DNA of 64,000 bases from Polaromonas sp. (GCA_044357185.1 JBIKPY010000006.1:4086-68085), one strand, 5' to 3'. Shown: positions 4,705 to 61,603, counted from the first letter of the stretch. A program made the numbers and translations. Notes: generated by a model from the letters alone, not told the origin.

Positions 4705-5703
4705 TTAGTCGGCCGTGATGTTGTTGTCGCGGATGGCCTTGCCATAACGCGCCAGCTGTTCACGCACCAGGCTGGTCAGCTCTGCGGGGGTGGTGCCGTC
4801 ACGCTTGAGACCCAGGCCGGCAAAGCGCTCTTTGATCGACGGGTCGGCCAGTGCTTTGACGACTTCGCGATGCAAGCGGTCCTGAATTTCTTTGGGCGTG
4901 CCTTTGGGTGCTGTCAGCGCAAACCAGGTGCTGAAATCAAAGCCCTGAATGCCCTGCTCCTTGAGTGTGGGCGAGTCGGGGTATTCAGGCTGCCGGCTGT
5001 CGGTCATCACGCCAATCAGGCGCAGTTTGCTCGCCTTGGCCAGCGCGGCCACGGTGGCGATGCCCTGGAACGTCACGTCAACCTGGCCGCCCGCCACATC
5101 CAGCGCGGCCTGGCTGGCACCCTTGTAAGGCACATGCTTCATATCTATGCCGGTGTGGGCCGCGAACAGTGCTGCGCCCATGTGCTGCGGGCTGCCACTG
5201 CCACCTGATGCATAAGTGATGCGGCCTGGCGCGGCTTTGGCGGCAGCTACCAACTCGGCGGCTGTCTTGTACGGCGAGTTGGTGCCCGCCGCGATGCTGA
5301 ACTCAATGGTTGCCACCTTGGAGATGTGGGTGAAATCCGTGACGGGGTTGAACGGTGTGTTTTTGTTCAGGTTCGGTACCATGGTCAGAACACTGTCGTT
5401 GAAGCCACCGATGGTGTAACCGTCGGGTGCTGCCTTGGCCAGCCTGTCGGCACCGATGATGCCGGAGGCGCCCACAATGTTTTCGACCACGATGGACTGA
5501 CCCATGTTCTCGGCCATTTTTTGGGCCAGCAAGCGGGCTGCTACGTCCACCGCGCTACCGGCTGCCAGCGGAACAATCATGCGGATCGGCTTGTTGGGGT
5601 AGCTGCCTTGGGCCTGGGCCGGTGCGGCCAGGGCCAAGCCGGCCATGGCGGCCAGCGTGACCACGAGGCGTCGTTTGCTAAAGGTGGGGGCGTTGAGTTT
5701 CAT
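4705..5703 (-). CDS. Bug/TctC tripartite tricarboxylate transporter substrate-binding protein
   Basis: Signal peptide, YPNKPIRMIVPLAAGSAVD, VENIVGASG, MKHVPYKG; ATG at 5703 preceded by GGAG RBS. Confidence 0.93.
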   Translation of the reverse strand: MKLNAPTFSKRRLVVTLAAMAGLALAAPAQAQGSYPNKPIRMIVPLAAGSAVDVAARLLAQKMAENMGQSIVVENIVGASGIIGADRLAKAAPDGYTIGGFNDSVLTMVPNLNKNTPFNPVTDFTHISKVATIEFSIAAGTNSPYKTAAELVAAAKAAPGRITYASGGSGSPQHMGAALFAAHTGIDMKHVPYKGASQAALDVAGGQVDVTFQGIATVAALAKASKLRLIGVMTDSRQPEYPDSPTLKEQGIQGFDFSTWFALTAPKGTPKEIQDRLHREVVKALADPSIKERFAGLGLKRDGTTPAELTSLVREQLARYGKAIRDNNITAD

Positions 5704-7353: not shown

Positions 7354-9557
7354 ACGGACTCCGCAGCATGAACGGCGCGCAACAAGGTGTCGGCAGTCAA
7401 GGGCAATTCCCGCACCCGAACACCCAGGGCATCGTGCACGGCGTTGGCCAGTGCGGCTGCTACCGGCCCCTGTGCGGCCTCGCCGGCACCCACGGATGGT
7501 TCATCGGGGCGGTCGATCACATGCACCGTGACCTTGGGCACTTCACTGAAACGCATCACCGGGTAGCTGAGCCATTCGTCGCTGGTGATGGCCTCGCGGT
7601 TGAAGGTGACGCGTTCCTTGAGGGTACAGCTGGCGCTCTGGATGGCGCCGCCTTCAATCTGGTTGATCACGCCATCCAGGTCCACCACCATGCCGACATC
7701 GACCGCCAGATCCAGGTTGAGCACCCGCACCTCTTCGTCCACTCGCACGCGCGCAATCACCGCGCACCAGGCACCGGTATTTTTATAGCGCGCCCAGGCC
7801 AGCCCGTGGCCGATCCCCTCGGGCTCTTCGGCGCGGCGGTGCCACCAGCTGGAACGCTTCACCACGGCGTCTAGCAGGGCCAGTGCGCGCGGGTCGTCCA
7901 GATGCCGCTTTCGAAAGGCCAGCGCATCTTGACCGGATAGATGGGCCAGCTCGTCCATGAAAGACTCGATAGCAAACACATTGGCATAAGCCCCCAGTGC
8001 ACGCATGGCTGAGGTCCGCAGCGGCGCCACCGTCAAGCGGTGGTTGAGCACCTTCAAATGCGGCAATGTGTAGGCCGGCACGGCATTGCGCTCAGCCCCG
8101 CCGCCCGCCGCCAGCGGTGGGTTGATGGGCAGCGGCAGCGGCGTTGCGTCGGCGCGCTCACTGGCTGCCAACAAAGCCGGCGTGAGGGCGCGGCCGGGGC
8201 GCGAGCTGTAGCCATTGGCCCACAACTCGTGATGCCAGTGGGTGATCTGGCCCGTCGCGTCGCATCGGGCCTTGAGCATGGCACGGTGTGCCGAACCCAA
8301 AGGGCTGTGCGTCAACTCGTCGGCACGCGACCACAGCACGCGCACCGGCTGGCCGGGACAGCGCAAGGCCATCAGCACGGCATCAAAAGCCACATCGTCA
8401 GCGCCGTTGTGGCCATAGCAGCCGGAACCCTCGACGTGGTGAATCAGGATGTAGGCTTTGGCCACCGGCACAGCTTCTTTAGCGAGGGCCTTGACGATAT
8501 CGTCGCGCAAATTGTGAATGCCCTGGCTGTGCGTCCAGACCTGCAGTTGGCGGCCGTCCCACTGCGCCAGTGCGCACGAAGGGCCGACGGAGGCATGCGC
8601 CAGATAAGGCTTGAGGTAAACCGCCTCATGATGCAGGCCGTCAGCGGGCCATTCGGCATCACCCCGCTCCACCGTCACCGTGGTCTGGTGAGGGGCGGAG
8701 GTCAGGAAACTGCCCAGATCGTGCATGTCGGGCAAGGGCGCGCCGGCGCGCCACTCAACCAGGCCGGCCAAGCGGGTAGCTGCCGCATCGGCATCGCGCT
8801 CTGAGTCCGCCACCACGGCCACAAAGCGGCCGTCGGCCCACCAGCGTGCACCCGCCGGCAGCGCGACCGCCGCCGCATCGGGCAGGCGGGCCAATGTGGC
8901 ATCTGGCGTAGCGGGTCGCAGCACGCGCCCATGCAGCATGCCGGGCAGCCGCAGATCATGAATGAAGCGGGCCTGGCCAAACACTTTGTCGGCCAGGTCC
9001 AGCCGCGGTGTGCTTGCCTGTCCCAGCAGGCGACGCTCAGCCGCCGCCTTGGGGCGCGCAGTGCCCGCACACTCGATGTCCAGGTTGATACCCCGCAACA
9101 GCGTCGCGTAGTCACCAAGGTCAAGCCCTTGCGCCGATCGAAAGCGCCCATGGCTCACTGTGATCGTGTGGGCCGGCTGGCCTGCCATCGCTGCGGCGCG
9201 CAGCAAGGCCATCGCCCGCACCTCGGCGCAAGCTTGGCGCAATGCGCTGCCGCTGTCTTGCACCGACAGGCTGCCGGAGGTCATGCCTTCATCGGGGCCG
9301 CGTCCGGTGCTGGCGCTGCACACATGCACAGCCGACAGCGGCATGTCCAACTCTTCAGCAGCCAGCAGTTGCAAAGCGGTCAGGATGCCCTGGCCGAGCT
9401 CGACCTTGCCGGTGAACACCTGCACCAGGCCTGGCTCGCCAAAGGCCAGCCACTGCGACAGACGGCGGTTGGTATGCAGACTGCCCGGCAATGGGGCTTG
9501 GCCGTCCTGACGGTCAACGATGAAACCGCGGGGCTGAGGCGTTGAAACATTGGTCAT
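7350..9557 (-). CDS. Molybdopterin-binding large subunit, xanthine oxidase family (IorB/NicB-like)
   Basis: GKVELGQGI, AEELD, GSGCYG, MRALG, GAGE (catalytic Glu); stop overlaps the small-subunit start. Confidence 0.92.
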   Translation of the reverse strand: MTNVSTPQPRGFIVDRQDGQAPLPGSLHTNRRLSQWLAFGEPGLVQVFTGKVELGQGILTALQLLAAEELDMPLSAVHVCSASTGRGPDEGMTSGSLSVQDSGSALRQACAEVRAMALLRAAAMAGQPAHTITVSHGRFRSAQGLDLGDYATLLRGINLDIECAGTARPKAAAERRLLGQASTPRLDLADKVFGQARFIHDLRLPGMLHGRVLRPATPDATLARLPDAAAVALPAGARWWADGRFVAVVADSERDADAAATRLAGLVEWRAGAPLPDMHDLGSFLTSAPHQTTVTVERGDAEWPADGLHHEAVYLKPYLAHASVGPSCALAQWDGRQLQVWTHSQGIHNLRDDIVKALAKEAVPVAKAYILIHHVEGSGCYGHNGADDVAFDAVLMALRCPGQPVRVLWSRADELTHSPLGSAHRAMLKARCDATGQITHWHHELWANGYSSRPGRALTPALLAASERADATPLPLPINPPLAAGGGAERNAVPAYTLPHLKVLNHRLTVAPLRTSAMRALGAYANVFAIESFMDELAHLSGQDALAFRKRHLDDPRALALLDAVVKRSSWWHRRAEEPEGIGHGLAWARYKNTGAWCAVIARVRVDEEVRVLNLDLAVDVGMVVDLDGVINQIEGGAIQSASCTLKERVTFNREAITSDEWLSYPVMRFSEVPKVTVHVIDRPDEPSVGAGEAAQGPVAAALANAVHDALGVRVRELPLTADTLLRAVHAAESV

Positions 9558-31549: not shown

Positions 31550-32923
31550 TCAGCGTCCAGCGGGCGGTGCGGCATGGCGCGAAGCCAGCCACACCAGCAG
31601 CAGCACCGGCACGCCCAGCAGGGCTGTGCCTATAAAGAAAGTCGGGTAATCGTACGCGTCGACAAAAGCGCCTGAGTAGCCGGCCAGAAACTTGGGCAGC
31701 AGCAGCATCATGGAGCTGAACAACGCGTACTGGGTGGCAGAGTAGTTCACGTTCGTCAGGCCCGACAGGTAGGCGATGAAGGCCGCCGAGGCAATGCCGC
31801 TGGCCAGGTTGTCGGCCGAGATCACCCACACCAAAGCCGTCAGGTCGTGGCCGCGCGTGCCCAGCCAGGCAAACAGCAGGTTGCTGCCAGCGCTGAGCAC
31901 GGCGCCCAACATCAGCACCCGCATCACGCCCAGGCGCATGGCCAGCGCACCACCCACAAAAGCGCCCACCAGCGTCATGATCACGCCATAGACTTTGGTG
32001 ACAGCCGCCACCTCGTCTTTGGTGAAACCCATGTCCACGTAAAACGGATTGGCCATGATGCCCATCACCACGTCGCTGATGCGGTAGACCGCGATCAGCA
32101 TCAGGATGAGCACGGCCTGGCGGCCGTAGCGCCGCAGAAAATCGGCAAAGGGCTCGATCAGCGCACCCTGCAGCCATTCGGCGGCATTGCGCGCACGCTG
32201 CATCTCAACGGCCTTCGGCTCGGGCGAAAACAGCACCGTCACCATGCCCAGCAGCATCGACGCGGCCATCACCAGGTAAGCGGCTTGCCAGGCGCCGTGC
32301 TGGTAGCTGGCCGCGCCCAGCGCGGGCGTGACTTCGGCGCGGGCTGCAATCCACAGCACGCCGGCGCCGGCCCAGATCATGGCGATGCGGTAGCCCGTCT
32401 GGTAAGAAGCGGCCAGCGCGGCCTGGCGCTGCGTGTCGGCCGACTCAATACGAAAAGCGTCCAGCGCAATGTCTTGCGTGGCCGAGCCCACAGCCACTGC
32501 CAGCGCGCACCAGACCATGGGCAGCAGCGCCTGCTGCGGGTCGGTCAGCGCCATGCCGACCAGCGCCGCCATGATGACGCACTGTGACAGCAGCAGCCAG
32601 CTGCGACGCCGGCCCAGCCAGCGCGTGAGCAAGGGAATCGGCAAGCGGTCCACCAGCGGCGCCCAGACCCACTTAAAGCCGTAGGCCAGACCCACCCAGC
32701 TCAGGTAACCAATCGTGGTGCGGTTGATGCCTGCTTCACGCAGCCAAAAACTCAGCGTGCCAAACACCAGCAGCAGCGGCAGGCCGGCCGAAAAACCCAG
32801 CAGCAGCATGCGCAGCGTGGCGGCTTCAAGGTACACGCGCAGGGTCTGGCCCCAGCTCGGGGGCGTGGGCTCTGCCGGGGTGCTGCCGGGGGTGGCGACG
32901 GGTTGGCTGACAGGTGGGACCAT
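31550..32923 (-). CDS. ampG: AmpG-family muropeptide MFS transporter (start uncertain)
   Basis: LGFSAGLP, FKWVWAPLVD, SATQDIALDAFRIE, YSATQYALFSS. Confidence 0.92.
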   Translation of the reverse strand: MVPPVSQPVATPGSTPAEPTPPSWGQTLRVYLEAATLRMLLLGFSAGLPLLLVFGTLSFWLREAGINRTTIGYLSWVGLAYGFKWVWAPLVDRLPIPLLTRWLGRRRSWLLLSQCVIMAALVGMALTDPQQALLPMVWCALAVAVGSATQDIALDAFRIESADTQRQAALAASYQTGYRIAMIWAGAGVLWIAARAEVTPALGAASYQHGAWQAAYLVMAASMLLGMVTVLFSPEPKAVEMQRARNAAEWLQGALIEPFADFLRRYGRQAVLILMLIAVYRISDVVMGIMANPFYVDMGFTKDEVAAVTKVYGVIMTLVGAFVGGALAMRLGVMRVLMLGAVLSAGSNLLFAWLGTRGHDLTALVWVISADNLASGIASAAFIAYLSGLTNVNYSATQYALFSSMMLLLPKFLAGYSGAFVDAYDYPTFFIGTALLGVPVLLLVWLASRHAAPPAGR

Positions 32924-32960
32924 AAGGGGAATAATACGCGCTGGCTTATCTCCAGCCTAC

Positions 32961-33791
32961 ATGAAGACGCATCCCATGACTGCCCTTGAACGCTATGCCA
33001 CTGCCCTGTTGACCGCTGCCTTGCTGCTGCCTGGCGCAGCGCTGGCGCAGCGTGAGGGTGTTGATGTGGGAGCCAACTCCGGCTTTGCTTCTTTGGTGCC
33101 GGCCAAGGATATTGAGCTTTCTGCGGCCAAGCAATACAAAACCCTGTTGGCCGAAGCGGCCAGCAAAAACGCACTGGCACCGCCCGAGCATCCCCAGCTG
33201 CTGCGCTTGCGGCGCATTGCAGACCAGCTGATTCCCTTTGCCAATGAGTGGAACCCGCGCGCCAAATCCTGGCAATGGGAGGTCAACTTGATTGGCAGCA
33301 AACAGATCAATGCTTTTTGCATGCCGGGCGGCAAGATTGTTTTTTACACCGGCATCATCGAGCAGCTCAAGCTGACCGACGATGAGGTGGCGCAAATCAT
33401 GGGCCACGAAATTGCGCATGCCTTGCGCGAGCATGCGCGTGAGCGCATGGGCAAAAGCACCGCCACCAGCATTGGCGCGGGTGTGGTGTCGCAATTGCTC
33501 GGGCTGGGCGATCTGGGGCGTACCGTCACCAACTACGGCGTTCAACTGCTGAACCTGACCTTCAGCCGGTCAGACGAGTCCGAGGCCGATCTGGTCGGGC
33601 TGGAGCTGGCAGCGCGCGCCGGCTACGACCCGCAGGCCGGCGTCACCTTGTGGCAAAAAATGTCGGCCAGCAGCAAAGGCGCACCGCCGCAATGGCTGAG
33701 CACGCACCCGGCGGGCAACACGCGCATCACGGACATCGAGCGCAATCTGCCGCGCGTCATGCCGCTCTACGAGCGGGCGCGCAAAGGCTGA
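32961..33791 (+). CDS. M48-family metalloprotease (start 32961 or 32976)
   Basis: NAFCMPGGKI, GHEIAH (HExxH), ESEAD, WLSTHP. Confidence 0.92.
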   Translation: MKTHPMTALERYATALLTAALLLPGAALAQREGVDVGANSGFASLVPAKDIELSAAKQYKTLLAEAASKNALAPPEHPQLLRLRRIADQLIPFANEWNPRAKSWQWEVNLIGSKQINAFCMPGGKIVFYTGIIEQLKLTDDEVAQIMGHEIAHALREHARERMGKSTATSIGAGVVSQLLGLGDLGRTVTNYGVQLLNLTFSRSDESEADLVGLELAARAGYDPQAGVTLWQKMSASSKGAPPQWLSTHPAGNTRITDIERNLPRVMPLYERARKG

Positions 33792-33952: not shown

Positions 33953-35701
33953 TTGGTGCAACACACATTAACTGACAGCCCAAATACGGGCAACACACTG
34001 CAAGGTTCTAAACCGGAAGCGCCTGACAACGCGTGGCTGTTGCGGACCACCGTGGCGCCCAGTCAGAAAACAACAGGCCCGCAGTCTTTAGCGGGCTTGC
34101 GCTTTGCGGTCAAAGACAACATCGATGTTGCAGGCCTGGTGACCAGCGCCGCCTGTCCGGCATTTGCCTTTGAGGCACAAGAAAGCGCACAAGTGGTGCA
34201 CAAACTGCTCAAGGCCGGTGCAACGCTGGCGGGCAAGACCAATCTGGACCAGTTCGCCTGCGGCCTCAATGGCACGCGCTCGCCGCATGGTCCGGTGCCC
34301 AATGCCTTCGACCCCGCTTATGTATCAGGCGGGTCGAGCTCCGGCTCTGCTTATGTGGTGGCCACGGGCCAGGTTGATTTTTCACTCGGCACCGACACCG
34401 CCGGCTCCGGCCGCGTGCCGGCCGGGCTTAACAACATCGTCGGCCTCAAGCCCTCACGCGGGCTGATCAGCACGCGCGGCGTGTTGCCGGCTGCGCAAAG
34501 CGTGGACTGCGTCTCTATATTTGCGCGCACGGTGGCCACGGCCGCGCAGGTGCTTGAAAGCGCCATCGGGCACGATCCGCTGGACGCGTATTCCAGAGCA
34601 CTGCAACTGAACGACCAAGCTTTTCCTGCCCGCTTTGTGTTTGGTGTGCCGGAGCAGCTCGAGTTCTTTGGCGACACGCTGGCCGAAGCTGCATTTGCCG
34701 AGGCCATCGAGCGCCTGCAAGCCATGGGCGGCACGCCCGTGCGGCTGGACTTTGCGCCTTTCAAGCAAGCGGCGCAATTGCTCTACGGCAGTGCGCTGGT
34801 GGACGAGCGTTACGCCGCGATCCGGCCGTTTTTCGACGCGCATGACAAGGATGTGATCGAGCCGGTGCGCAGCATCATTGCCAATGGCAAAAAGTTCAGC
34901 GCGGCGGACCTCTTTGACGCGCAGACGCAGCTCAAGCTGCTTGGCCAGCGTGCCGACGCCCTGTGGCTGGGGCTGGACTTGCTGGTGGTGCCGACCGCAC
35001 CGACCCACTACAGCGTCGCCGCCATGCAAGCCGACCCGGTCGAGCTCAACCGGCGCCTGGGCGAATACACCAACTTCGTCAACCTGCTCGACTACGCGGC
35101 CCTGTCGGTGCCCAGCGCTATCCGGCCTGACGGCATGCCTTTCGGCATCACGCTGATCGGCCGCTGCGGCAGCGACTGGCAACTTGCCGAGCTCGGTCAG
35201 CGTTATCACCATCTGACCGGACTCACGCAAGGCGCCATGGGCGAGCCGCTGCCAGCGCCCCAGCCGATTGCCGGCCTGAGCCGCCCTGCAGCAGCCAGCG
35301 TGCGCGTCGCCGTGGTCGGCGCGCACCTGTCAGGAATGCCGCTCAACAGCCAGCTCATTGAGCGCGGCGCCACGCTGGTGGGCTCCGCAAGCACCGCCCC
35401 CGATTACCGCTTTTACGCGCTGCCAGGCAGCACACCGCCCAAGCCGGGCTTGTTGCGCGTGGCGGCCGGCCAGGGCGCGGCCATCGCCCTGGAAATCTGG
35501 GACATGCCGCTGGCGCACTACGGCTCATTCGTTGCGCTCATTGCAGCCCCGCTGGGCATAGGCACGCTGCGGCTGGCCGACGGCAGCAGCGTGCAGGGCT
35601 TTGTGTGCGAAGCCGAAGGCATGCAAGGCGCGCAAGACATCACGCACCTGGGTGGCTGGCGGGCCTATGTCGCGCTGATGTCGCGCAAGGCTGAGCCCTA
35701 G
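33953..35701 (+). CDS. atzF: Allophanate hydrolase (amidase-signature + C-terminal GGCT-like domain); start uncertain
   Basis: AVKDNID, GKTNLDQFA, GGSSSGS, GTDTAGSGRVPA, VVGAHLSGMPL, GGWRAY. Confidence 0.93.
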   Translation: MVQHTLTDSPNTGNTLQGSKPEAPDNAWLLRTTVAPSQKTTGPQSLAGLRFAVKDNIDVAGLVTSAACPAFAFEAQESAQVVHKLLKAGATLAGKTNLDQFACGLNGTRSPHGPVPNAFDPAYVSGGSSSGSAYVVATGQVDFSLGTDTAGSGRVPAGLNNIVGLKPSRGLISTRGVLPAAQSVDCVSIFARTVATAAQVLESAIGHDPLDAYSRALQLNDQAFPARFVFGVPEQLEFFGDTLAEAAFAEAIERLQAMGGTPVRLDFAPFKQAAQLLYGSALVDERYAAIRPFFDAHDKDVIEPVRSIIANGKKFSAADLFDAQTQLKLLGQRADALWLGLDLLVVPTAPTHYSVAAMQADPVELNRRLGEYTNFVNLLDYAALSVPSAIRPDGMPFGITLIGRCGSDWQLAELGQRYHHLTGLTQGAMGEPLPAPQPIAGLSRPAAASVRVAVVGAHLSGMPLNSQLIERGATLVGSASTAPDYRFYALPGSTPPKPGLLRVAAGQGAAIALEIWDMPLAHYGSFVALIAAPLGIGTLRLADGSSVQGFVCEAEGMQGAQDITHLGGWRAYVALMSRKAEP

Positions 35702-35764
35702 AACCGTTCACTTTTTTTACCTCACTTTTCACCTCACTTTTTATCCCATCCAAGGAGTTTCATC

Positions 35765-36367
35765 ATGACCGCATCAAGCCAGCCCTTCAAATCCGCCGCC
35801 TCACGCCGCCTGTTACTCCAAGCCGGCGCTGCCGTGCTGGGCACGCTGGCCATGCCCGCCATCGTGAGGGCGCAGGCGCGTCCGAAAATCCGCATCGGTT
35901 ATTGGCCAGTAGCCGCCGGCTTGCCGTTTTTTGCGGTCATTGAAAAAGGCTATTTCAAAGAAGCCGGTCTGGATGTCGAGGCCATCAAGTTCGCTGGCGC
36001 TCAGCAGGTGATGGAAGCCATGCTCGCCGGCCGCTCGGACGGCAGCTCCAACGGCACCGGTTCGGCCAATCTGGCCATCGGCGAGATTGCCCAGCCCGGC
36101 CTGTTCAAAATTTTTGCCACCAACCCGAGCAACGCCAAGTTTGTGCTGGACGAGTTCATCGTGCCCAAAGACAGCCCCGTCAAAACCATGGCCGATCTCA
36201 AAGGCAAGAAAGTCGCTTCCGGCCCCGGCATCCAGAACGTCACGCTGGCCAAGACCATGCTCAAGCGTGGGCGTGAATCTCGTATTTCTGCAGTGCCTCG
36301 TACGGCAGTGGCGCAAAATTTAACTACCCGTCCAAGCCCGTCAACGCGCAAGCGCGCTGCGACTTGA
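35765..36367 (+). pseudogene. 3'-truncated ABC transporter substrate-binding protein (NMT1/SsuA-like); native sequence ends near 36268
   Basis: Tat-like SRRLLL signal, KIRIGYW, GLDVEAIKF, DLKGKKV; about 170 aa of family-like sequence, then unrelated sequence running through an attC site; no permease/ATPase follows. Confidence 0.8.
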
Positions 36368-36381
36368 TTCGAACCTTAGGT
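36318..36381 (+). mobile_element. Integron attC site (64 bp), R' core mutated
   Basis: R'' ATTTAAC - TACCCG - L'' TC(C)AAGC - GCGC-AA-GCGC loop - L' ACTTGA - TTCGAAC - R' CTTAGGT (GTTAGGT with G>C). Confidence 0.82.
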
Positions 36382-36410
36382 CACAAAAACAATCACCATC
36401 ATCCTTCACC

Positions 36411-36890
36411 ATGGTCGAATCCCAAATTATCGAAATTCGAAGCGCCACTCTAAGCGACCTAGACGCGGTCACACAGTTGGTAGCTGGATTCCGAGACTTC
36501 CTACAACGATCAGAACCCGCTAACGACGAGCTACGCGCCAGCGTCATCAAATGGCTTGGAAGTGAAGACACTGAAGTCTCGATTGCTCTGTTGAACGGTG
36601 TAGCTGTTGGATATGCAAGCACGCTCTATCAGTACTCGCTTTGGGCAAGCGGAATCAATGCAACCATCTCAGACCTCTTCGTCACGGATAGCGTTCGCAA
36701 GTCAGGTGCAGGCAGACGCTTGATTGAGCACGCCCTCGAGGTTGCCGCACGCCGCGGAGCGCGAGCAGCAAATCTGAGCACGAACGAGAGGAACACCGCA
36801 TCAATCCGAATCTACGAGAGCCTTGGCTTCAACTCCTTTTCTAATCTATGGCAAGGTAGGCAAGTCGCGTACCGCAAATCCATCCCTTAA
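36411..36890 (+). CDS. GNAT-family acetyltransferase (gene cassette)
   Basis: ISDLFV...RKSGAGRRL (motif A), N..SIRIYESLGF (motif B); atypical codon use; bracketed by TTAGG and GCCTAAC. Confidence 0.9.
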   Translation: MVESQIIEIRSATLSDLDAVTQLVAGFRDFLQRSEPANDELRASVIKWLGSEDTEVSIALLNGVAVGYASTLYQYSLWASGINATISDLFVTDSVRKSGAGRRLIEHALEVAARRGARAANLSTNERNTASIRIYESLGFNSFSNLWQGRQVAYRKSIP

Positions 36891-36899
36891 AACTGCGGC

Positions 36900-37229
36900 C
36901 TAACCCCGGGCTCGGGTCAAAAGCTCATCCAGCGCGTCGGCAATGATTTGTCCCTCTTGCGCCAGTGACCCGACCCTCTCGCCCAATTGATCGACGGCCA
37001 CCGAAACCGTGTCCAGAGGATTCAGGACAACACGTACACCTTCAACAACAAAAGCGGGGTTCATCCTGGCGCCTATCGTCGGGGTGTTCCGGGGAAGCAG
37101 CGTGTCACGCACCAGGGGGACCACCACGCGTCTGCGATAGCCGTCAAACTGCGCAGACTGAACAATCACGACGAAAGGAATCGCGTCGCGCAAGGCCCCC
37201 TTGTTGCGATGAACATCGAATTGCGCCAT
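36900..37229 (-). CDS. ccdB: CcdB-family toxin
   Basis: MAQFDVHRN, VIVQS, RRVVVPLV, MNPAFVVEG, VGSL; TAATG-coupled to ccdA. Confidence 0.88.
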   Translation of the reverse strand: MAQFDVHRNKGALRDAIPFVVIVQSAQFDGYRRRVVVPLVRDTLLPRNTPTIGARMNPAFVVEGVRVVLNPLDTVSVAVDQLGERVGSLAQEGQIIADALDELLTRARG

Positions 37230-37477
37230 TACAAGGTGGTGTGCTCGTCTGCAAAAGAGCCGACTGCGTCGTGCACCGCATTCCAGTCGGCCACACAGGC
37301 ATCAGCTTCTTGTTGGCGGTTGCGTTGCGCGCTTTGCTGAGTGGCGACAAACTCAGCAAGCAGAGACTCCATGGTGGCCGACAAGTTGTCGGTGTACGAC
37401 TTGGCCTGCGTGACGAGAGCCTCATTCATGGTGAGATTGACGGGCCGCTTGCGCGTTGTTGCGTTACGGGTTTCCAT
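37229..37477 (-). CDS. ccdA: CcdA-family antitoxin
   Basis: RKRPVNLTM (RHH strand), NLSATMESLL, WN...GSFADE C-terminus. Confidence 0.88.
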   Translation of the reverse strand: METRNATTRKRPVNLTMNEALVTQAKSYTDNLSATMESLLAEFVATQQSAQRNRQQEADACVADWNAVHDAVGSFADEHTTL

Positions 37478-37534
37478 TGGCAGACTCCAAAATGGGCAAT
37501 GCGCACATTATGCGCATAAAGCCTTTTAAGTGCA

Positions 37535-37594
37535 CCATGTGCTTGGGGGCACGAGCCGCCATTCAAGGCGTGAAGTCGTAGCCGACAGTTATGG
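37535..37594 (-). mobile_element. Degenerate attC-like site (60 bp)
   Basis: Minus strand: R'' CCATAAC - TGTCG - L'' GC(T)ACGA - CGCC/GGCG stem - L' TCGTGC - CCCCAAG - R' CACATGG (GTT lost). Confidence 0.55.
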
Positions 37595-37619
37595 GCGCAT
37601 CGGCTTGCAACACGCCGGC

Positions 37620-38096
37620 TTAGCTTGTCCAGCGCATCAACGACACGAGTAGAACCAAAAAACCTGTACCGAGGTTGATGGAGACCCACCTGCGAATCTG
37701 CGCCATGACCGCAGCACCTGCGCTCCACTCGGACGCTGCCACGGCTTGGGCTAGCCTTTTGAAAAGCACGAAGCGGATGTGCATAAAGATTGCCACCATG
37801 ACAATACCGAGCACCGCCATGATGGTCCATGCCAGCGGCATCTCGAAGCTGCCACCCGACTGCACAACTTGCTTGGCCACCCGGCCCAGCATCCAAACAC
37901 CGCTGATTAAAGTGAGCAGCGAAGCCACAAGCACCGCTTGGAAGAAGCGGCCAAGAACGTCATGCATCAGCCGCAAGCGGACTGACGCTTCGAGCTGAGC
38001 GACTGCCGGTCGCAGAAAGAAGTGGGCAAAGGCCATGCCACCGATCCATAGGACGATGGAAAAAACATGAATAGTCTTAAGGGTTGCGTAGATCAT
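37620..38096 (-). CDS. CopD/DUF2269-like integral membrane protein
   Basis: LKTIHVFSIVLWIGGMAF, four TM segments. Confidence 0.82.
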   Translation of the reverse strand: MIYATLKTIHVFSIVLWIGGMAFAHFFLRPAVAQLEASVRLRLMHDVLGRFFQAVLVASLLTLISGVWMLGRVAKQVVQSGGSFEMPLAWTIMAVLGIVMVAIFMHIRFVLFKRLAQAVAASEWSAGAAVMAQIRRWVSINLGTGFLVLLVSLMRWTS

Positions 38097-38133
38097 CAGT
38101 GAGTCCTTTTTTAGCTTATAGCAGGCTCAGGAT

Positions 38134-38286
38134 CTACGCGCTGCCCCAAGCCCATTTCGCCAGCAAGAGCCCAGCCCTTGCAAACAAGACTACCCCCGAC
38201 AGCAGCAGCCCGCAGACCAGCGCTATTGCAGGCATCACGACGATCGGTGGCGTCATATGTGCCGGATACCAGTCACTCGCCAATGA
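38134..38286 (-). pseudogene. Probable orphan fragment of a membrane-protein gene (40 aa from ATG 38256)
   Basis: Open hydrophobic frame DWYPAHMTPPIVVMPAIALVCGLLLSGVVLFARAGLLLAKWAWGSA* immediately after the xth stop. Confidence 0.35.
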
Positions 38287-39105
38287 TCAAAGCGCAAATT
38301 CATAGCCCACCGTGATGGGCGCATGGTCTGAAAACCGTTCGTCTTTGTAAATCGCTTCGCTGCGCGCCAGCGCGGCAAAGGCCGCGGTGGCCAGGTGGTA
38401 GTCGAGCCGCCAGCCCACGTTCTTGGCGTAGGCCTGGCCGCGGTTACTCCACCAGGTGTAGCAGGCGTCTGTCGCAGTGGGTTGCAACTGACGGTACACA
38501 TCGACCAGACCGCCGCCTGTTTTGTCTTGGCGCAGCAAGTTGCTCATCCAGTCGCGTTCTTCGGGCAAAAAGCCGCTGTTCTTTTTGTTGCCCTTGAAGT
38601 TTTTCAAATCAATTTCCTGGTGCGCGATGTTGATGTCGCCGCACAGCACCACTTCGCGGCCGCCGCTTTTGAGCGCCTGCAGGTGCGGGCGCAGCTCGGC
38701 CAGAAATCTAAACTTGGCAGCCTGGCGGTCTTCGCCTGACGAGCCGCTGGGAAAGTAGCAGCTGATGATCGACAGCTTGGACGCCTGCGCGCGGCCGGGG
38801 CTGTCAAAGCGCAGCTCCACATAGCGGCCTTCGGCGTCAAATTCGCTGGAGCCGTAACCGACGATGACGTCGCTGGGTTCGTAACGGGTGTACACGCCCA
38901 CGCCCGAGTAGCCTTTTTTCTCAGCGAACTGAAAGTGGCCGTTGAGGCCGGCCAGTGACTCGAAGCGCCCGGCCATGTCGGGGGCCTGAGCTTTGATCTC
39001 CTGCACGCAAATACAATCGGGTTTGGCTTTTTCAAGCCAGGCTTCGACGCCCTTGCTGGTGGCGGAGCGGATGCCGTTGAGGTTGAGGCTGGTGAGTGTG
39101 AACAA
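38287..39105 (-). CDS. xth: Exodeoxyribonuclease III (TTG start; ATG 39117 alternative)
   Basis: SLNLNGIRS, CVQEIK, GYSGV, CGDINIAH, YTWWSNR, GWRLDY, FSDHAP. Confidence 0.95.
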   Translation of the reverse strand: MFTLTSLNLNGIRSATSKGVEAWLEKAKPDCICVQEIKAQAPDMAGRFESLAGLNGHFQFAEKKGYSGVGVYTRYEPSDVIVGYGSSEFDAEGRYVELRFDSPGRAQASKLSIISCYFPSGSSGEDRQAAKFRFLAELRPHLQALKSGGREVVLCGDINIAHQEIDLKNFKGNKKNSGFLPEERDWMSNLLRQDKTGGGLVDVYRQLQPTATDACYTWWSNRGQAYAKNVGWRLDYHLATAAFAALARSEAIYKDERFSDHAPITVGYEFAL

Positions 39106-39115
39106 GGAATTTCCC

Positions 39116-39814
39116 ATGACAACAAGTAAGGCGGCCAACGACATGCTGGCCCAGGAGTTTGTGCAATTCTCGCTGGATTGCGGGGTGCTCAAGTTCGGGG
39201 AGTTCAAAACCAAGGCCGGCCGCATGAGCCCCTACTTTTTCAACGCCGGTTTGTTTGACGACGGCGCCAAGCTCGGGCGCCTGGCCGGCTTTTATGCGCA
39301 GCGCCTGGTGAGCAGCGGTATCGAGTTCGACATGATCTTTGGCCCCGCCTACAAGGGCATACCTTTGGGTGCAGCGGTGGCCATTGAGCTAGCGCGTCTG
39401 GGGCGCAACGTGCCTTTTGCCTACAACCGCAAAGAGGCCAAAGACCACGGCGAAGGCGGCAGCCTGGTGGGCGCGCCGCTCAAAGGGCGTGTGCTGATCA
39501 TTGACGACGTGATGAGCGCCGGCACCGCTGCGCGCGAGTCAATTGCGCTGATCAAGGCGGCGGGCGCCACGCCGCACGCGGTGGCCATTGCGCTGGATCG
39601 CCAGGAAATGGCGACTGAAACCCAGGCCGACGGCAGTACGCGCGACGTGCCTTACAGCGCAGTGCAGTACGTGCGCGAGCAGGTCGGCTTGCAGGTGTGC
39701 GCAATTGCAGAACTCAGCGACTTGCTGGCCTACCTGAGCGCGCAACCCGGTAACGCCATGGGCGAGCACCTGGTGCGGGTACAGGCTTACCGCGACCGCT
39801 ACGGTGTTCAGTAA
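39116..39814 (+). CDS. pyrE: Orotate phosphoribosyltransferase
   Basis: KAGRMSPYFFNAG, FGPAYKGIP, NRKEAKDHGEGG, VLIIDDVMSAG. Confidence 0.96.
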   Translation: MTTSKAANDMLAQEFVQFSLDCGVLKFGEFKTKAGRMSPYFFNAGLFDDGAKLGRLAGFYAQRLVSSGIEFDMIFGPAYKGIPLGAAVAIELARLGRNVPFAYNRKEAKDHGEGGSLVGAPLKGRVLIIDDVMSAGTAARESIALIKAAGATPHAVAIALDRQEMATETQADGSTRDVPYSAVQYVREQVGLQVCAIAELSDLLAYLSAQPGNAMGEHLVRVQAYRDRYGVQ

Positions 39815-61129: not shown

Positions 61130-61603
61130 ATGCCACGTCGTCGCGAAGTCCCTAAACGTGAAATTCTTCCTGATCCAAAATTTGGCGATGTCGATCTCGC
61201 CAAGTTCATGAACGTGATCATGCAAGGCGGTAAAAAAGCCGTCGCCGAGCGCATCATTTATGGCGCGCTCGACTTTATCGAGAAAAAGAACCCCGGCAAA
61301 GACCCGCTCGAGGCTTTCCACATGGCCATCGGCAACATCAAGCCCATGGTTGAAGTGAAGTCCCGTCGTGTCGGCGGTGCCAACTACCAGGTGCCGGTTG
61401 AAGTTCGCCCTGTGCGCCGTATGGCTTTGGCCATGCGCTGGCTCAAAGAAGCTGCCAAAAAGCGTGGTGAAAAATCCATGTCTTTGCGTCTGGCCAATGA
61501 GCTAATGGAAGCAACCGAAGGCCGTGGCGGCGCCATGAAAAAGCGTGACGAAGTTCACCGCATGGCCGAAGCCAACAAGGCCTTCAGCCACTTCCGCTTC
61601 TAA
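61130..61603 (+). CDS. rpsG: 30S ribosomal protein S7
   Basis: [29 protein letters not shown]. Confidence 0.99.

What the first reader, a model, noticed from the sequence alone, without database searches (positions are those of the whole stretch)
36318..36904. Hidden integron gene cassette (attC + GNAT) with no integrase nearby
Seen: a 64-bp site has the full attC architecture (R'' ATTTAAC; L'' TC(C)AAGC pairing with L' ACTTGA with the extrahelical base; GCGC-AA-GCGC loop; 7-nt spacer; R' CTTAGGT). A promoter-less GNAT gene with foreign codon use follows, then GCCTAAC, the inverse core complementary to the cassette's own leading TTAGG. Known: this is how IntI-mobilised cassettes are bounded. 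Inference: a fossil CALIN. The G>C change in the invariant GTT of R' would block excision and fix the GNAT in the chromosome.
Basis: partly seen in the sequence, partly recalled or inferred. Interest (0 to 1): 0.75.

Follow-up and report, generated by a model that had tools for sequence, protein, structure and literature searches.

The report
Decayed integron cassette remnant (GNAT)
This is a worn-down leftover of an integron gene-cassette array in a freshwater Polaromonas genome that has lost its integron integrase: a damaged attC recombination site followed by an acetyltransferase cassette whose own attC has been cut off. Such leftovers are well known, so the case is real but ordinary.

Summary
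Window 36318-36381 (+) is a 64-nt attC site: R'' ATTTAAC, L'' GTC(C)AAG, L' CTTGAT, R' CTTAGGT.

General evidence is weak. Covariance models built only from attCs of other arrays give 13.5 and 16.1 bits, the top hit of the window but not significant genome-wide. Its single-strand fold is no better than shuffles.

Homology is decisive. The site belongs to a fixed-length 64-nt attC family found in about 14 Polaromonas genomes. Canonical GTT copies score 26-38 bits and sit beside 47-73-bit attCs, one next to an intI fragment. The 40 nt upstream are a relic of a brnA antitoxin gene, fused by deletion to a truncated transporter gene at 36270-36276.

GNAT (36411-36890; GC3 0.55 against 0.75-0.78) has rare homologues that are attC-flanked cassettes in large arrays. 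Its own attC is reduced to GCCTAACCCC and is replaced by ccdB.

The genome has no IntI, whereas 34 of 151 genus genomes do. The sister genome keeps an intI stub at the syntenic locus.

The cassette is immobile mainly because its 3' attC and the integrase are gone. The G>C change is at most a contributing cause. Verdict: new member of a known kind (CALIN/SALIN); low interest.

The parts
35765..36269 (+). 5' half (about 168 codons) of an NMT1-type ABC-transporter substrate-binding protein gene, cut off by a deletion
   Evidence: Pfam NMT1 match covers profile positions 6-114 of 216 only. The 97% homology to the intact gene in Polaromonas MAG locus L096 ends at 36269. Relatives match up to about 36270.
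36270..36276 (.). Deletion/illegitimate-recombination junction (GGCGTGA, origin unassigned)
   Evidence: It lies between the end of the SBP homology (36269) and the start of the brnA homology to L056 (about 36277).
36277..36324 (+). Relic of the 3' end of a brnA (DUF4415) antitoxin gene, running into the attC
   Evidence: 86% identity over 110 nt to G100 locus L056, where this stretch is the end of an intact brnA ORF (...YYQSRISAVLRTAVAQNLTARPS...). The window reads ...SRISAVPRTAVAQNLTTRPS....
36318..36381 (+). Degenerate 64-nt attC site of the brnA/HTH-cassette family. R'' 36318-36324 ATTTAAC; L'' 36330-36336 GTC(C)AAG; L' 36363-36368 CTTGAT; R' 36375-36381 CTTAGGT, with C at 36375 instead of G.
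   Evidence: Top hit in the window for CM R1 (13.5 bits) and R2 (16.1 bits), full-length and on the + strand. 50 of 64 positions match the consensus of canonical family copies, which score 26-38 bits and sit in attC arrays.
36376..36897 (+). Body of the GNAT cassette. It starts at TTAGGT (the recombination point follows base 36375). The GNAT ORF is 36411-36890 (159 aa).
   Evidence: Pfam Acetyltransf_1, E = 2e-15. In G001 the same cassette follows a different attC (that of DinB), with the junction at the same point. Homologues at 58-68% identity are attC-flanked cassettes. dN/dS is 0.18 against G001.
36898..36907 (+). Stub of GNAT's own attC: R'' GCCTAAC plus CCC. The rest of the attC is missing.
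   Evidence: Homologous cassettes start their attC at the same place with GCCTAACCCCTCGCTCAAGCGG / ACCTAACCCCACG. No CM hit appears here on either strand with filters off. CTAACCCC is also the native end of ccdB.
36900..37229 (-). ccdB toxin gene. Its stop codon overlaps the attC stub.
   Evidence: Pfam CcdB, E = 2e-22. ccdAB lies directly next to xth in several Polaromonas genomes that have no cassette array.
37229..37477 (-). ccdA antitoxin gene
   Evidence: Pfam CcdA, E = 1.5e-16.
37563..37605 (-). Relic copy of the 3' end of xth (77% identical to the real end at 38287-38329). It marks the former xth-ccdAB junction.
   Evidence: Direct repeat D2. In G001 and L098 this sequence is the true end of xth, directly followed by ccdA.

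Best explanation
The locus is a decayed fragment of a sedentary chromosomal integron cassette array in a Polaromonas (Comamonadaceae) genome that no longer encodes an integron integrase.

What is shown:
- 36318-36381 is a diverged copy of a 64-nt attC family that ends brnTA and HTH-antitoxin cassettes in this genus.
- The 40 nt before it are the tail of brnA.
- The GNAT gene that follows is a cassette. Its start (TTAGGT) lies exactly at the attC crossover point.
- GNAT's own attC is reduced to its first 10 nt.

What is inferred:
- The array once lay in the variable xth-M48 gap, as in the sister genome G001, which still has an intI stub, a GTTAGGC first-cassette junction where attI would lie, and DinB and GNAT cassettes.
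- One deletion joined the middle of a transporter SBP gene to the end of brnA, removing the upstream part of the array.
- Another junction joined GNAT's attC to the stop-codon region of ccdB. It probably used the shared CTAACCCC, and it predates the G000/G001 split.

The cassette cannot move today. There is no IntI, no 3' attC, and the 5' attC has CTT instead of GTT with a C-C mismatch in the R box.

The GNAT ORF is intact and under purifying selection. It is most likely still expressed by read-through from the upstream allophanate-hydrolase/SBP operon on the same strand. It most likely acts as a small-molecule N-acetyltransferase of unknown substrate.
For:
- CM R1 was built from 24 attCs of IntI-linked arrays in other genomes. 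CM R2 was built from 119 attCs. Both place their best window hit at 36318-36381 (+), over the full model length.
- About 14 homologous 64-nt copies exist in the genus, with BLAST E-values down to 1.8e-22.
- Canonical copies score 26-38 bits and lie next to 47-73-bit attCs. One copy is 860 bp from an intI fragment, in the correct divergent orientation.
- 34 of 151 genus genomes carry IntI above the TIGR02249 cut-off. G000 and G001 do not.
- G001 has an intI stub at the syntenic locus: 43 codons, 56% identity, 2 stops.
- Cassettes are shuffled at the exact crossover point. GNAT follows the DinB attC in G001 (23.4 bits) and the brnA attC here. The DUF433 cassette follows the HTH attC in G001 and the brnA attC in G100.
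- GNAT homologues are attC-flanked cassettes in arrays that together gave 47 attC hits over seven loci.
- GNAT has GC3 0.55 and dN/dS 0.18.
- The same genome has two further attC + BrnTA islets, on contigs C51 and C29.
- The left junction is mapped against the intact SBP gene.
Against: - Taken alone, the site is not statistically secure. It scores 13.5-16.1 bits, with E = 0.17-0.77 per 64 kb and an extrapolated E of about 7-33 for the whole genome. A second, unrelated 12-bit hit occurs in the same window.
- The ssDNA fold energy is not better than that of shuffles.
- The R' core lacks the invariant G. In 119 array attCs, 115 have GTT and none has CTT.
- No second attC lies within 4 kb.
- No intI relic is in the window itself.
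- The order of events is inferred from two genomes only (which deletion came first, and whether the array was born at xth).
Confidence: 0.88

Rival explanations
1. The cassette DNA did not decay in place from a resident integron. It was inserted directly into the chromosome at a secondary genomic site (attG) by an integrase acting in trans, which is the route proposed for isolated cassettes (SALIN).
For: Isolated cassettes are common, and IntI can insert cassettes outside att sites (10.1101/2022.09.11.507474). Most CALIN have no intI pseudogene nearby (PMC4889954). The window itself has no intI relic. G000 has two other small attC + BrnTA islets at unrelated loci.
Against: The left junction lies inside the brnA coding relic (36270-36277), not at a cassette boundary, so it is a deletion scar and not an IntI crossover. 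The syntenic locus in G001 carries an intI stub plus a GTTAGGC first-cassette junction upstream of the same GNAT cassette. The right end is a truncated attC, not a complete attC joined to a target.
Confidence: 0.06
2. The 64-nt site is not a recombination site at all. It is a chance imperfect palindrome: the coding tail of an antitoxin gene, a terminator or a REP-like element. GNAT is then an ordinary horizontally acquired gene.
For: The CM score is below genome-wide significance. Fold energy is not better than shuffles. An ORF reads through the site in all family copies.
Against: Family copies keep a fixed length of 64 nt and the R''/L''/L'/R' layout. They follow two unrelated genes (brnA and an XRE-type HTH gene). 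They score up to 38 bits with a model trained on unrelated attCs, and they lie within arrays of strong attCs. Sequence downstream of the G|TT point switches between genomes exactly as cassette exchange predicts. GNAT homologues are attC-flanked.
Confidence: 0.03
3. The site is still usable. CTT-type sites form a compatible subset that an incoming integrase could recombine with each other, so the region is a dormant, mobilisable cassette reservoir rather than a fossil.
For: Recombination is restored when both partners carry the same first-base change (PMC2811028). CTT occurs in 5 of 14 family copies. Authors have proposed that CALIN cassettes can be recruited by incoming integrons (PMC4889954).
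Against: GNAT has no 3' attC, so no second site exists for excision. R'' keeps its C, so the folded R box has a C-C mismatch. The published rescue used complementary double mutants. All CTT copies are in IntI-less genomes, and none occurs among 119 array attCs. This fits decay.
Confidence: 0.03

Closest known systems
CALIN / SALIN (clusters of attC sites, or single attC sites, lacking an integron integrase; Cury et al. 2016 PMC4889954; Neron et al. 2022 PMC9024848; Loot et al. preprint 10.1101/2022.09.11.507474)
   Same: attC-bounded cassette DNA in a genome without IntI. The cassette function is unrelated to antibiotic resistance. The origin is by loss of intI and rearrangement, one of the routes those authors propose.
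   Different: Only one recognisable attC is present, and it is so decayed that a genome-wide CM scan would probably miss it. The second attC is a 10-nt stub, so the CALIN definition of at least 2 attC sites is not met. Unlike about 95% of CALIN, an intI pseudogene can be found, but only in the sister genome's syntenic locus.
Sedentary chromosomal integrons of Polaromonas / Comamonadaceae (IntI-positive genomes of the same genus)
   Same: The attC family is the same: 64 nt, ATTTAAC...GTCCAAG...CTTGAC TTCGAC GTTAGGC. The cassette types are the same: brnTA, HTH antitoxins, small ORFs. The orientation logic is the same.
   Different: There is no intI, no attI and no Pc in the window. R' is CTT. 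The array is reduced to one and a half cassettes and fused to housekeeping genes.
Canonical attC sites such as attC-aadA7 (structure recalled from the literature; cleavage-site requirements from PMC2811028)
   Same: R''-spacer-L''...L'-spacer-R' layout. The extra base lies on the 5' arm of the top strand (an extrahelical G on the bottom strand). The L box is of the GTYCAAG type.
   Different: The first base of the cleavage triplet is C. The R box pairs poorly (ATTTAAC against CTTAGGT). The predicted hairpin is not unusually stable.
Toxin-antitoxin cassettes that stabilise chromosomal cassette arrays (known from Vibrio superintegrons; own knowledge)
   Same: TA modules (brnTA, ccdAB, and vapBC and HTH/DUF433 in G001) are interleaved with the cassettes. 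They are what survives in the integrase-less genomes.
   Different: ccdAB here shows no attC of its own. It sits next to xth in several Polaromonas genomes that have no array, so it may be a resident neighbour rather than a cassette.

Membership tests
attC recombination site | R'' inverse core RYYYAAC at the 5' end | tested here: met
   ATTTAAC at 36318-36324. The same box occurs in nearly all family copies.
attC recombination site | R' core GTTRRRY at the 3' end, with the invariant GTT | tested here: not met
   CTTAGGT at 36375-36381. Of 119 array attCs, 115 have GTT and none has CTT.
attC recombination site | L''/L' boxes with unpaired spacers and an extra base on the 5' arm (an extrahelical base on the bottom strand), giving strand asymmetry | tested here: met
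   The CM alignment pairs GTC-AAG with CTTGAT, with C36333 bulged, and has 5/6-nt spacers. The hit is on the + strand only, the same strand as GNAT.
attC recombination site | Significant hit to an attC covariance model | tested here: inconclusive
   R1 gives 13.5 bits (E = 0.77 per window) and R2 gives 16.1 bits (E = 0.17 per window). It is the top hit but below a genome-wide threshold. IntegronFinder's own model was not available.
attC recombination site | Stable single-strand hairpin | tested here: not met
   DNA fold energies are -8.1 to -9.3 kcal/mol, with z-scores between -0.13 and +0.71 against shuffles.
attC recombination site | Homology to sites that lie at cassette boundaries in integrase-linked arrays | tested here: met
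   The 64-nt family copies reach 38 bits, lie beside 47-73-bit attCs, and one is 860 bp from an intI fragment.
attC recombination site | Recombined by an integron integrase | not testable with these tools
   This needs an in vivo excision or integration assay.
Integron gene cassette (GNAT) | The ORF starts just after a G|TT crossover point, and the upstream partner differs between genomes | tested here: met
   The window has brnA-attC|TTAGGT...GNAT. G001 has DinB-attC|CTAGGC...GNAT.
Integron gene cassette (GNAT) | The cassette carries its own complete attC at the 3' end | tested here: not met
   Only GCCTAACCCC remains at 36898-36907, and no CM hit is found there.
Integron gene cassette (GNAT) | Homologues occur as attC-flanked cassettes | tested here: met
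   In L085, L086 and L087 an attC lies directly before and after the gene, each scoring 37.8-51.1 bits.
CALIN (IntegronFinder definition) | At least two attC sites clustered (4 kb or less apart) | tested here: not met
   One weak attC plus a 10-nt stub, and no other hit within 35500-38400.
CALIN (IntegronFinder definition) | No integron integrase nearby | tested here: met
   No TIGR02249 hit over the cut-off in the genome. No IntI relic in the window by tblastn.
Complete integron | intI with an adjacent attI and Pc | tested here: not met
   Absent from the window and the genome. Only G001 keeps a 43-codon intI stub.

The most novel reading that the evidence does not exclude
The C-for-G change at the first base of R' may not be random decay. 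It appears in 5 of 14 copies of this one attC family, on at least three different 3' arms. All five are in integrase-less genomes, and none is found among 119 attCs in arrays. It could be a selected 'locking' change that freezes cassettes next to toxin-antitoxin modules. Alternatively, it could mark an attC subfamily with altered cleavage-site specificity whose members recombine only with one another, as the published same-base rule would allow.
Probability: 0.06. Interest if true: 0.55.

Novelty: new member of a known kind. Interest (0 to 1): 0.25.

Why it matters
The case documents how a chromosomal integron erodes after the integrase is lost. The cleavage triplets mutate, attC sites are clipped by deletions, toxin-antitoxin cassettes survive, and a cassette gene (GNAT) is kept under purifying selection as an ordinary chromosomal gene driven by a neighbouring operon.

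It also shows a practical limit. Remnants like this fall below covariance-model thresholds and are recognised only by homology to attC families of related integrase-positive genomes. Surveys of CALIN/SALIN therefore probably undercount old remnants.

None of this changes current understanding of integrons.

Tried and rejected
- Rfam was not searched. I know of no attC family in it, so I built my own models instead (R1 from 24 attCs, R2 from 119).
- ssDNA folding of the site and of the region after GNAT gave no signal above shuffles.
- I looked for a full attC after GNAT, or after ccdA, on either strand with filters off, and found none. The hairpin GGG(C)TCGGGTCA...TGACCCGACCC inside the ccdB 3' end is coding sequence without R boxes, so I rejected it as an attC.
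- I suspected that the G001 region upstream of the first cassette (...CCATAACAAAGTTAGGC) resembles class 1 attI1. BLAST against 72,556 plasmids found nothing, so I dropped the idea.
- I looked for integrons or attCs downstream of xth in 20 other Polaromonas/Comamonadaceae loci and found none. The array at xth is therefore specific to the G000/G001 lineage.
- GNAT substrate assignment failed. All NCBIfam hits are far below their cut-offs (best is PhnO-like at 40 bits against 142), and PDB hits are generic GNATs.
- I considered a GNAT-type toxin reading. No DUF1778/RHH partner gene is present, so I rejected it.
- Earlier-findings look-up returned nothing for this genome.
The same C occurs in the independently assembled G001 copy.

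Full report
**Layout of the region**

The window is contig C83 of a 2.75-Mb, 92%-complete genome in 122 contigs. Relatives found with the xth protein are Polaromonas and other Comamonadaceae MAGs from lakes.

On the + strand the region reads as follows:

| Coordinates | Strand | Feature |
|---|---|---|
| 32715-33791 | + | M48 peptidase |
| 33953-35701 | + | allophanate hydrolase |
| 35765 to about 36269 | + | NMT1-type substrate-binding protein (SBP) gene, N-terminal half only |
| 36318-36381 | + | the 64-nt site |
| 36411-36890 | + | GNAT |
| 36900-37229 | - | ccdB |
| 37229-37477 | - | ccdA |
| 37563-37605 | - | 43-nt copy of the xth 3' end |
| 37620-38096 | - | CopD-like gene |
| 38287-39225 | - | xth |
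| from 38993 | + | pyrE |

**The observation**

- R'' ATTTAAC
- spacer TACCC
- L'' GTC(C)AAG
- a central GCGC-AA-GCGC palindrome
- L' CTTGAT
- spacer TCGAAC
- R' CTTAGGT, with C at 36375 where G is expected

GNAT is compositionally foreign, with GC3 0.55 against 0.75-0.78 in the neighbouring genes. No promoter-like site on the + strand and no terminator lie upstream of it. GCCTAAC is at 36898-36904.

**Is the site more than chance?**

On generic criteria, barely. As single-stranded DNA the site folds no better than shuffled sequence.

I built a covariance model, R1, from 24 attC sites taken from cassette arrays next to IntI genes in other genomes of the genus. It has 16 base pairs: the R box plus the L box with bulges. 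I then built a broader model, R2, from 119 attCs. These also include two metagenomic arrays from elsewhere.

With all filters off, both models place their best hit of the 64-kb window at exactly 36318-36381 on the + strand, over the full model length. The scores are only 13.5 and 16.1 bits, with E = 0.77 and 0.17 for the window. Extrapolated to the genome these are not significant. An unrelated 12-bit hit appears at 61228-61280.

**The homology evidence is decisive**

A BLAST search of 96 nt around the site against 204 genomes of the genus found about 14 related copies. They are 74-86% identical, with E-values down to 1.8e-22.

All copies are exactly 64 nt long and share the architecture ATTTAAC-TGGTC-GTCCAAG-(26 nt)-CTTGAC-TTCGAC-GTTAGGC. 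They follow the 3' end of either brnA (DUF4415 antitoxin) or an XRE-type HTH gene.

Canonical copies score 26-38 bits with R1, which was trained without them. They lie beside attCs of 47-73 bits, which means they sit in cassette arrays. In G140 one copy lies 860 bp from an intI fragment, in the divergent orientation expected for a first cassette.

The window copy matches the family consensus at 50 of 64 positions. The 40 nt upstream of it (from about 36277) are homologous to the end of brnA. The window reads ...SRISAVPRTAVAQNLTTRPS..., and the intact G100 gene reads ...YYQSRISAVLRTAVAQNLTARPS....

**Integrons in the genus**

IntI over the TIGR02249 cut-off is present in 34 of 151 genomes of the genus. 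It is absent from this genome and from its closest relative, G001.

G001 carries the same GNAT (94% aa identity) in the syntenic xth-M48 gap, inside a larger remnant. In order, this remnant holds:
1. an intI stub of 43 codons, 56% identical to a genus IntI, with two in-frame stops;
2. a canonical GTTAGGC junction before the first cassette;
3. a DinB-like cassette with an attC of 23.4 bits whose R' reads GCTAGGC;
4. GNAT;
5. a ccdB fragment, vapBC, a truncated HTH gene with a CTT copy of the 64-nt family, a DUF433 cassette, a membrane protein, ccdAB and xth.

The same cassettes follow different attCs in different genomes, and the switch falls exactly at the G|TT point. GNAT follows the DinB attC in G001 and the brnA attC here. 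The DUF433 cassette follows the HTH attC in G001 and the brnA attC in G100. This is the signature of IntI-mediated cassette exchange.

**GNAT as a cassette gene**

GNAT is rare. It is found in 3 of 204 genomes of the genus and has 15 homologues among 5.8 billion proteins.

The homologues with enough context sit in dense arrays of small, same-strand ORFs with IS110-family transposases. These are P0010 (68% identity) and P0011 (58% identity, present twice on one 52.8-kb contig). R1 finds 47 attCs over the seven homologue loci searched, including one directly before and one directly after each GNAT copy.

In those cassettes the attC starts at or just after the stop codon, with GCCTAACCCCTCGCTCAAGCGG or similar. 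In the window and in G001 the sequence is GCCTAACCCC and then runs straight into the antisense 3' end of ccdB. No attC is detectable there.

CTAACCCC is also the native end of ccdB: it holds the stop codon, and it is present in the G001 copy that is not next to GNAT. The junction therefore lies within a short shared sequence, and a microhomology-mediated deletion is the simplest reading. This is an inference.

ccdAB lies directly next to xth in several Polaromonas genomes without arrays. It may be a resident neighbour rather than a cassette.

**The left junction**

An almost identical intact SBP gene exists in Polaromonas MAG locus L096, at 97% nucleotide identity. Homology to it stops at window position 36269, and brnA homology starts at about 36277. 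This is a deletion scar inside a gene and inside a cassette ORF. It is not an integrase crossover, which argues against direct insertion at a secondary site.

**How it works now**

The cassette is immobile for three reasons. No IntI is encoded in the genome. GNAT's 3' attC is gone. The 5' attC has CTT with a C-C mismatch in the R box.

Frumerie et al. (PMC2811028) found a 10^3-10^4-fold drop when the first base of GTT is changed in one partner only, and full restoration when both partners carry the same change. It is not what fixes GNAT.

GNAT itself is intact, and its dN/dS against the G001 copy is 0.18. It is probably expressed by read-through from the hydrolase/SBP operon. Its substrate is unknown.

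**Comparison with known systems**

The locus fits the published picture of CALIN and SALIN elements arising by loss of intI and by rearrangement (PMC4889954; PMC9024848; 10.1101/2022.09.11.507474). It fails the formal CALIN criterion of two or more attC sites, and it would probably be missed by a genome-wide CM scan.

It is a new member of a known kind. The one mildly unusual point is the recurrence of CTT in 5 of 14 family copies, all in IntI-less genomes, against none among 119 array attCs. With so few independent events this is compatible with neutral decay.

Noticed in passing
window 37563-37605 and 38287-38329; L017 9140-9179; L096: Diverged direct copies (77-93% identity) of the last 40-43 nt of xth occur in the xth-M48 gap in this genome, in G001 and in the MAG behind L096. 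In many Comamonadaceae xth and M48 are directly adjacent. The gap therefore looks like a hotspot where elements integrate at the 3' end of xth and bring a replacement gene end. In G001 the two copies bracket the whole integron remnant.
   Followed up: partly
window 37603-38286: The CopD-like gene plus a relic of an exoD-like gene's 3' end lies between xth and the old xth end. In G001 the same 638 bp (88% identity) sits on another contig (C80), after an intact exoD-like gene and before a HigA-type antitoxin gene. In G000 that HigA gene is on contig C29, next to an attC + BrnTA islet. This suggests a rearrangement between two TA/cassette loci.
   Followed up: partly
G000 contig C51:7182-7890 (L018 2183-2891) and contig C29:10775-10903 (L054 1501-1629): There are two further cassette islets in the same integrase-less genome. 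C51 holds a DUF2513-like ORF, a 107-aa ORF, an attC (28.6 bits), BrnT-BrnA, and a terminal copy of the 64-nt family with a mutated R'' (ATTTGGC). C29 holds an attC (23.3 bits) followed by BrnT-BrnA. BrnTA cassettes are what persists.
   Followed up: partly
L017 (G001:C25) 5146-5476 and 7430-7679: G001 has a 250-bp partial duplicate of ccdB flanking a segment of about 2 kb (vapBC, truncated HTH gene, DUF433, membrane protein). Homologous recombination between the two copies would produce exactly the GNAT-ccdB-ccdA arrangement seen in the window.
   Followed up: no
L085, L086, L087 (GCA_031414735.1 contig; ENA ERZ26165376 contig of 52.8 kb): These are large cassette arrays with very homogeneous 78-nt or 129-nt attCs, IS110-family transposase genes at the edges, and the same GNAT cassette present twice 29.6 kb apart on one contig.
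   Followed up: no
attC family copies: window 36375, L017 about 6352, L066, L081, L057: The first base of R' is C instead of G in 5 of 14 copies of one attC family. All five are in genomes without IntI. None of the 119 attCs in arrays has CTT. The DinB attC of G001 has GCT. The cleavage triplets appear to be among the first features to go, or to be selected against, after integrase loss.
   Followed up: partly
window 61228-61280 (+): This is the second-best covariance-model hit in the window (12.0-12.5 bits, E = 1.4-1.8). Its R boxes are poor (CGGTAAA / CTTTATC) and it was not examined for cassette context. It is most likely noise.
   Followed up: no
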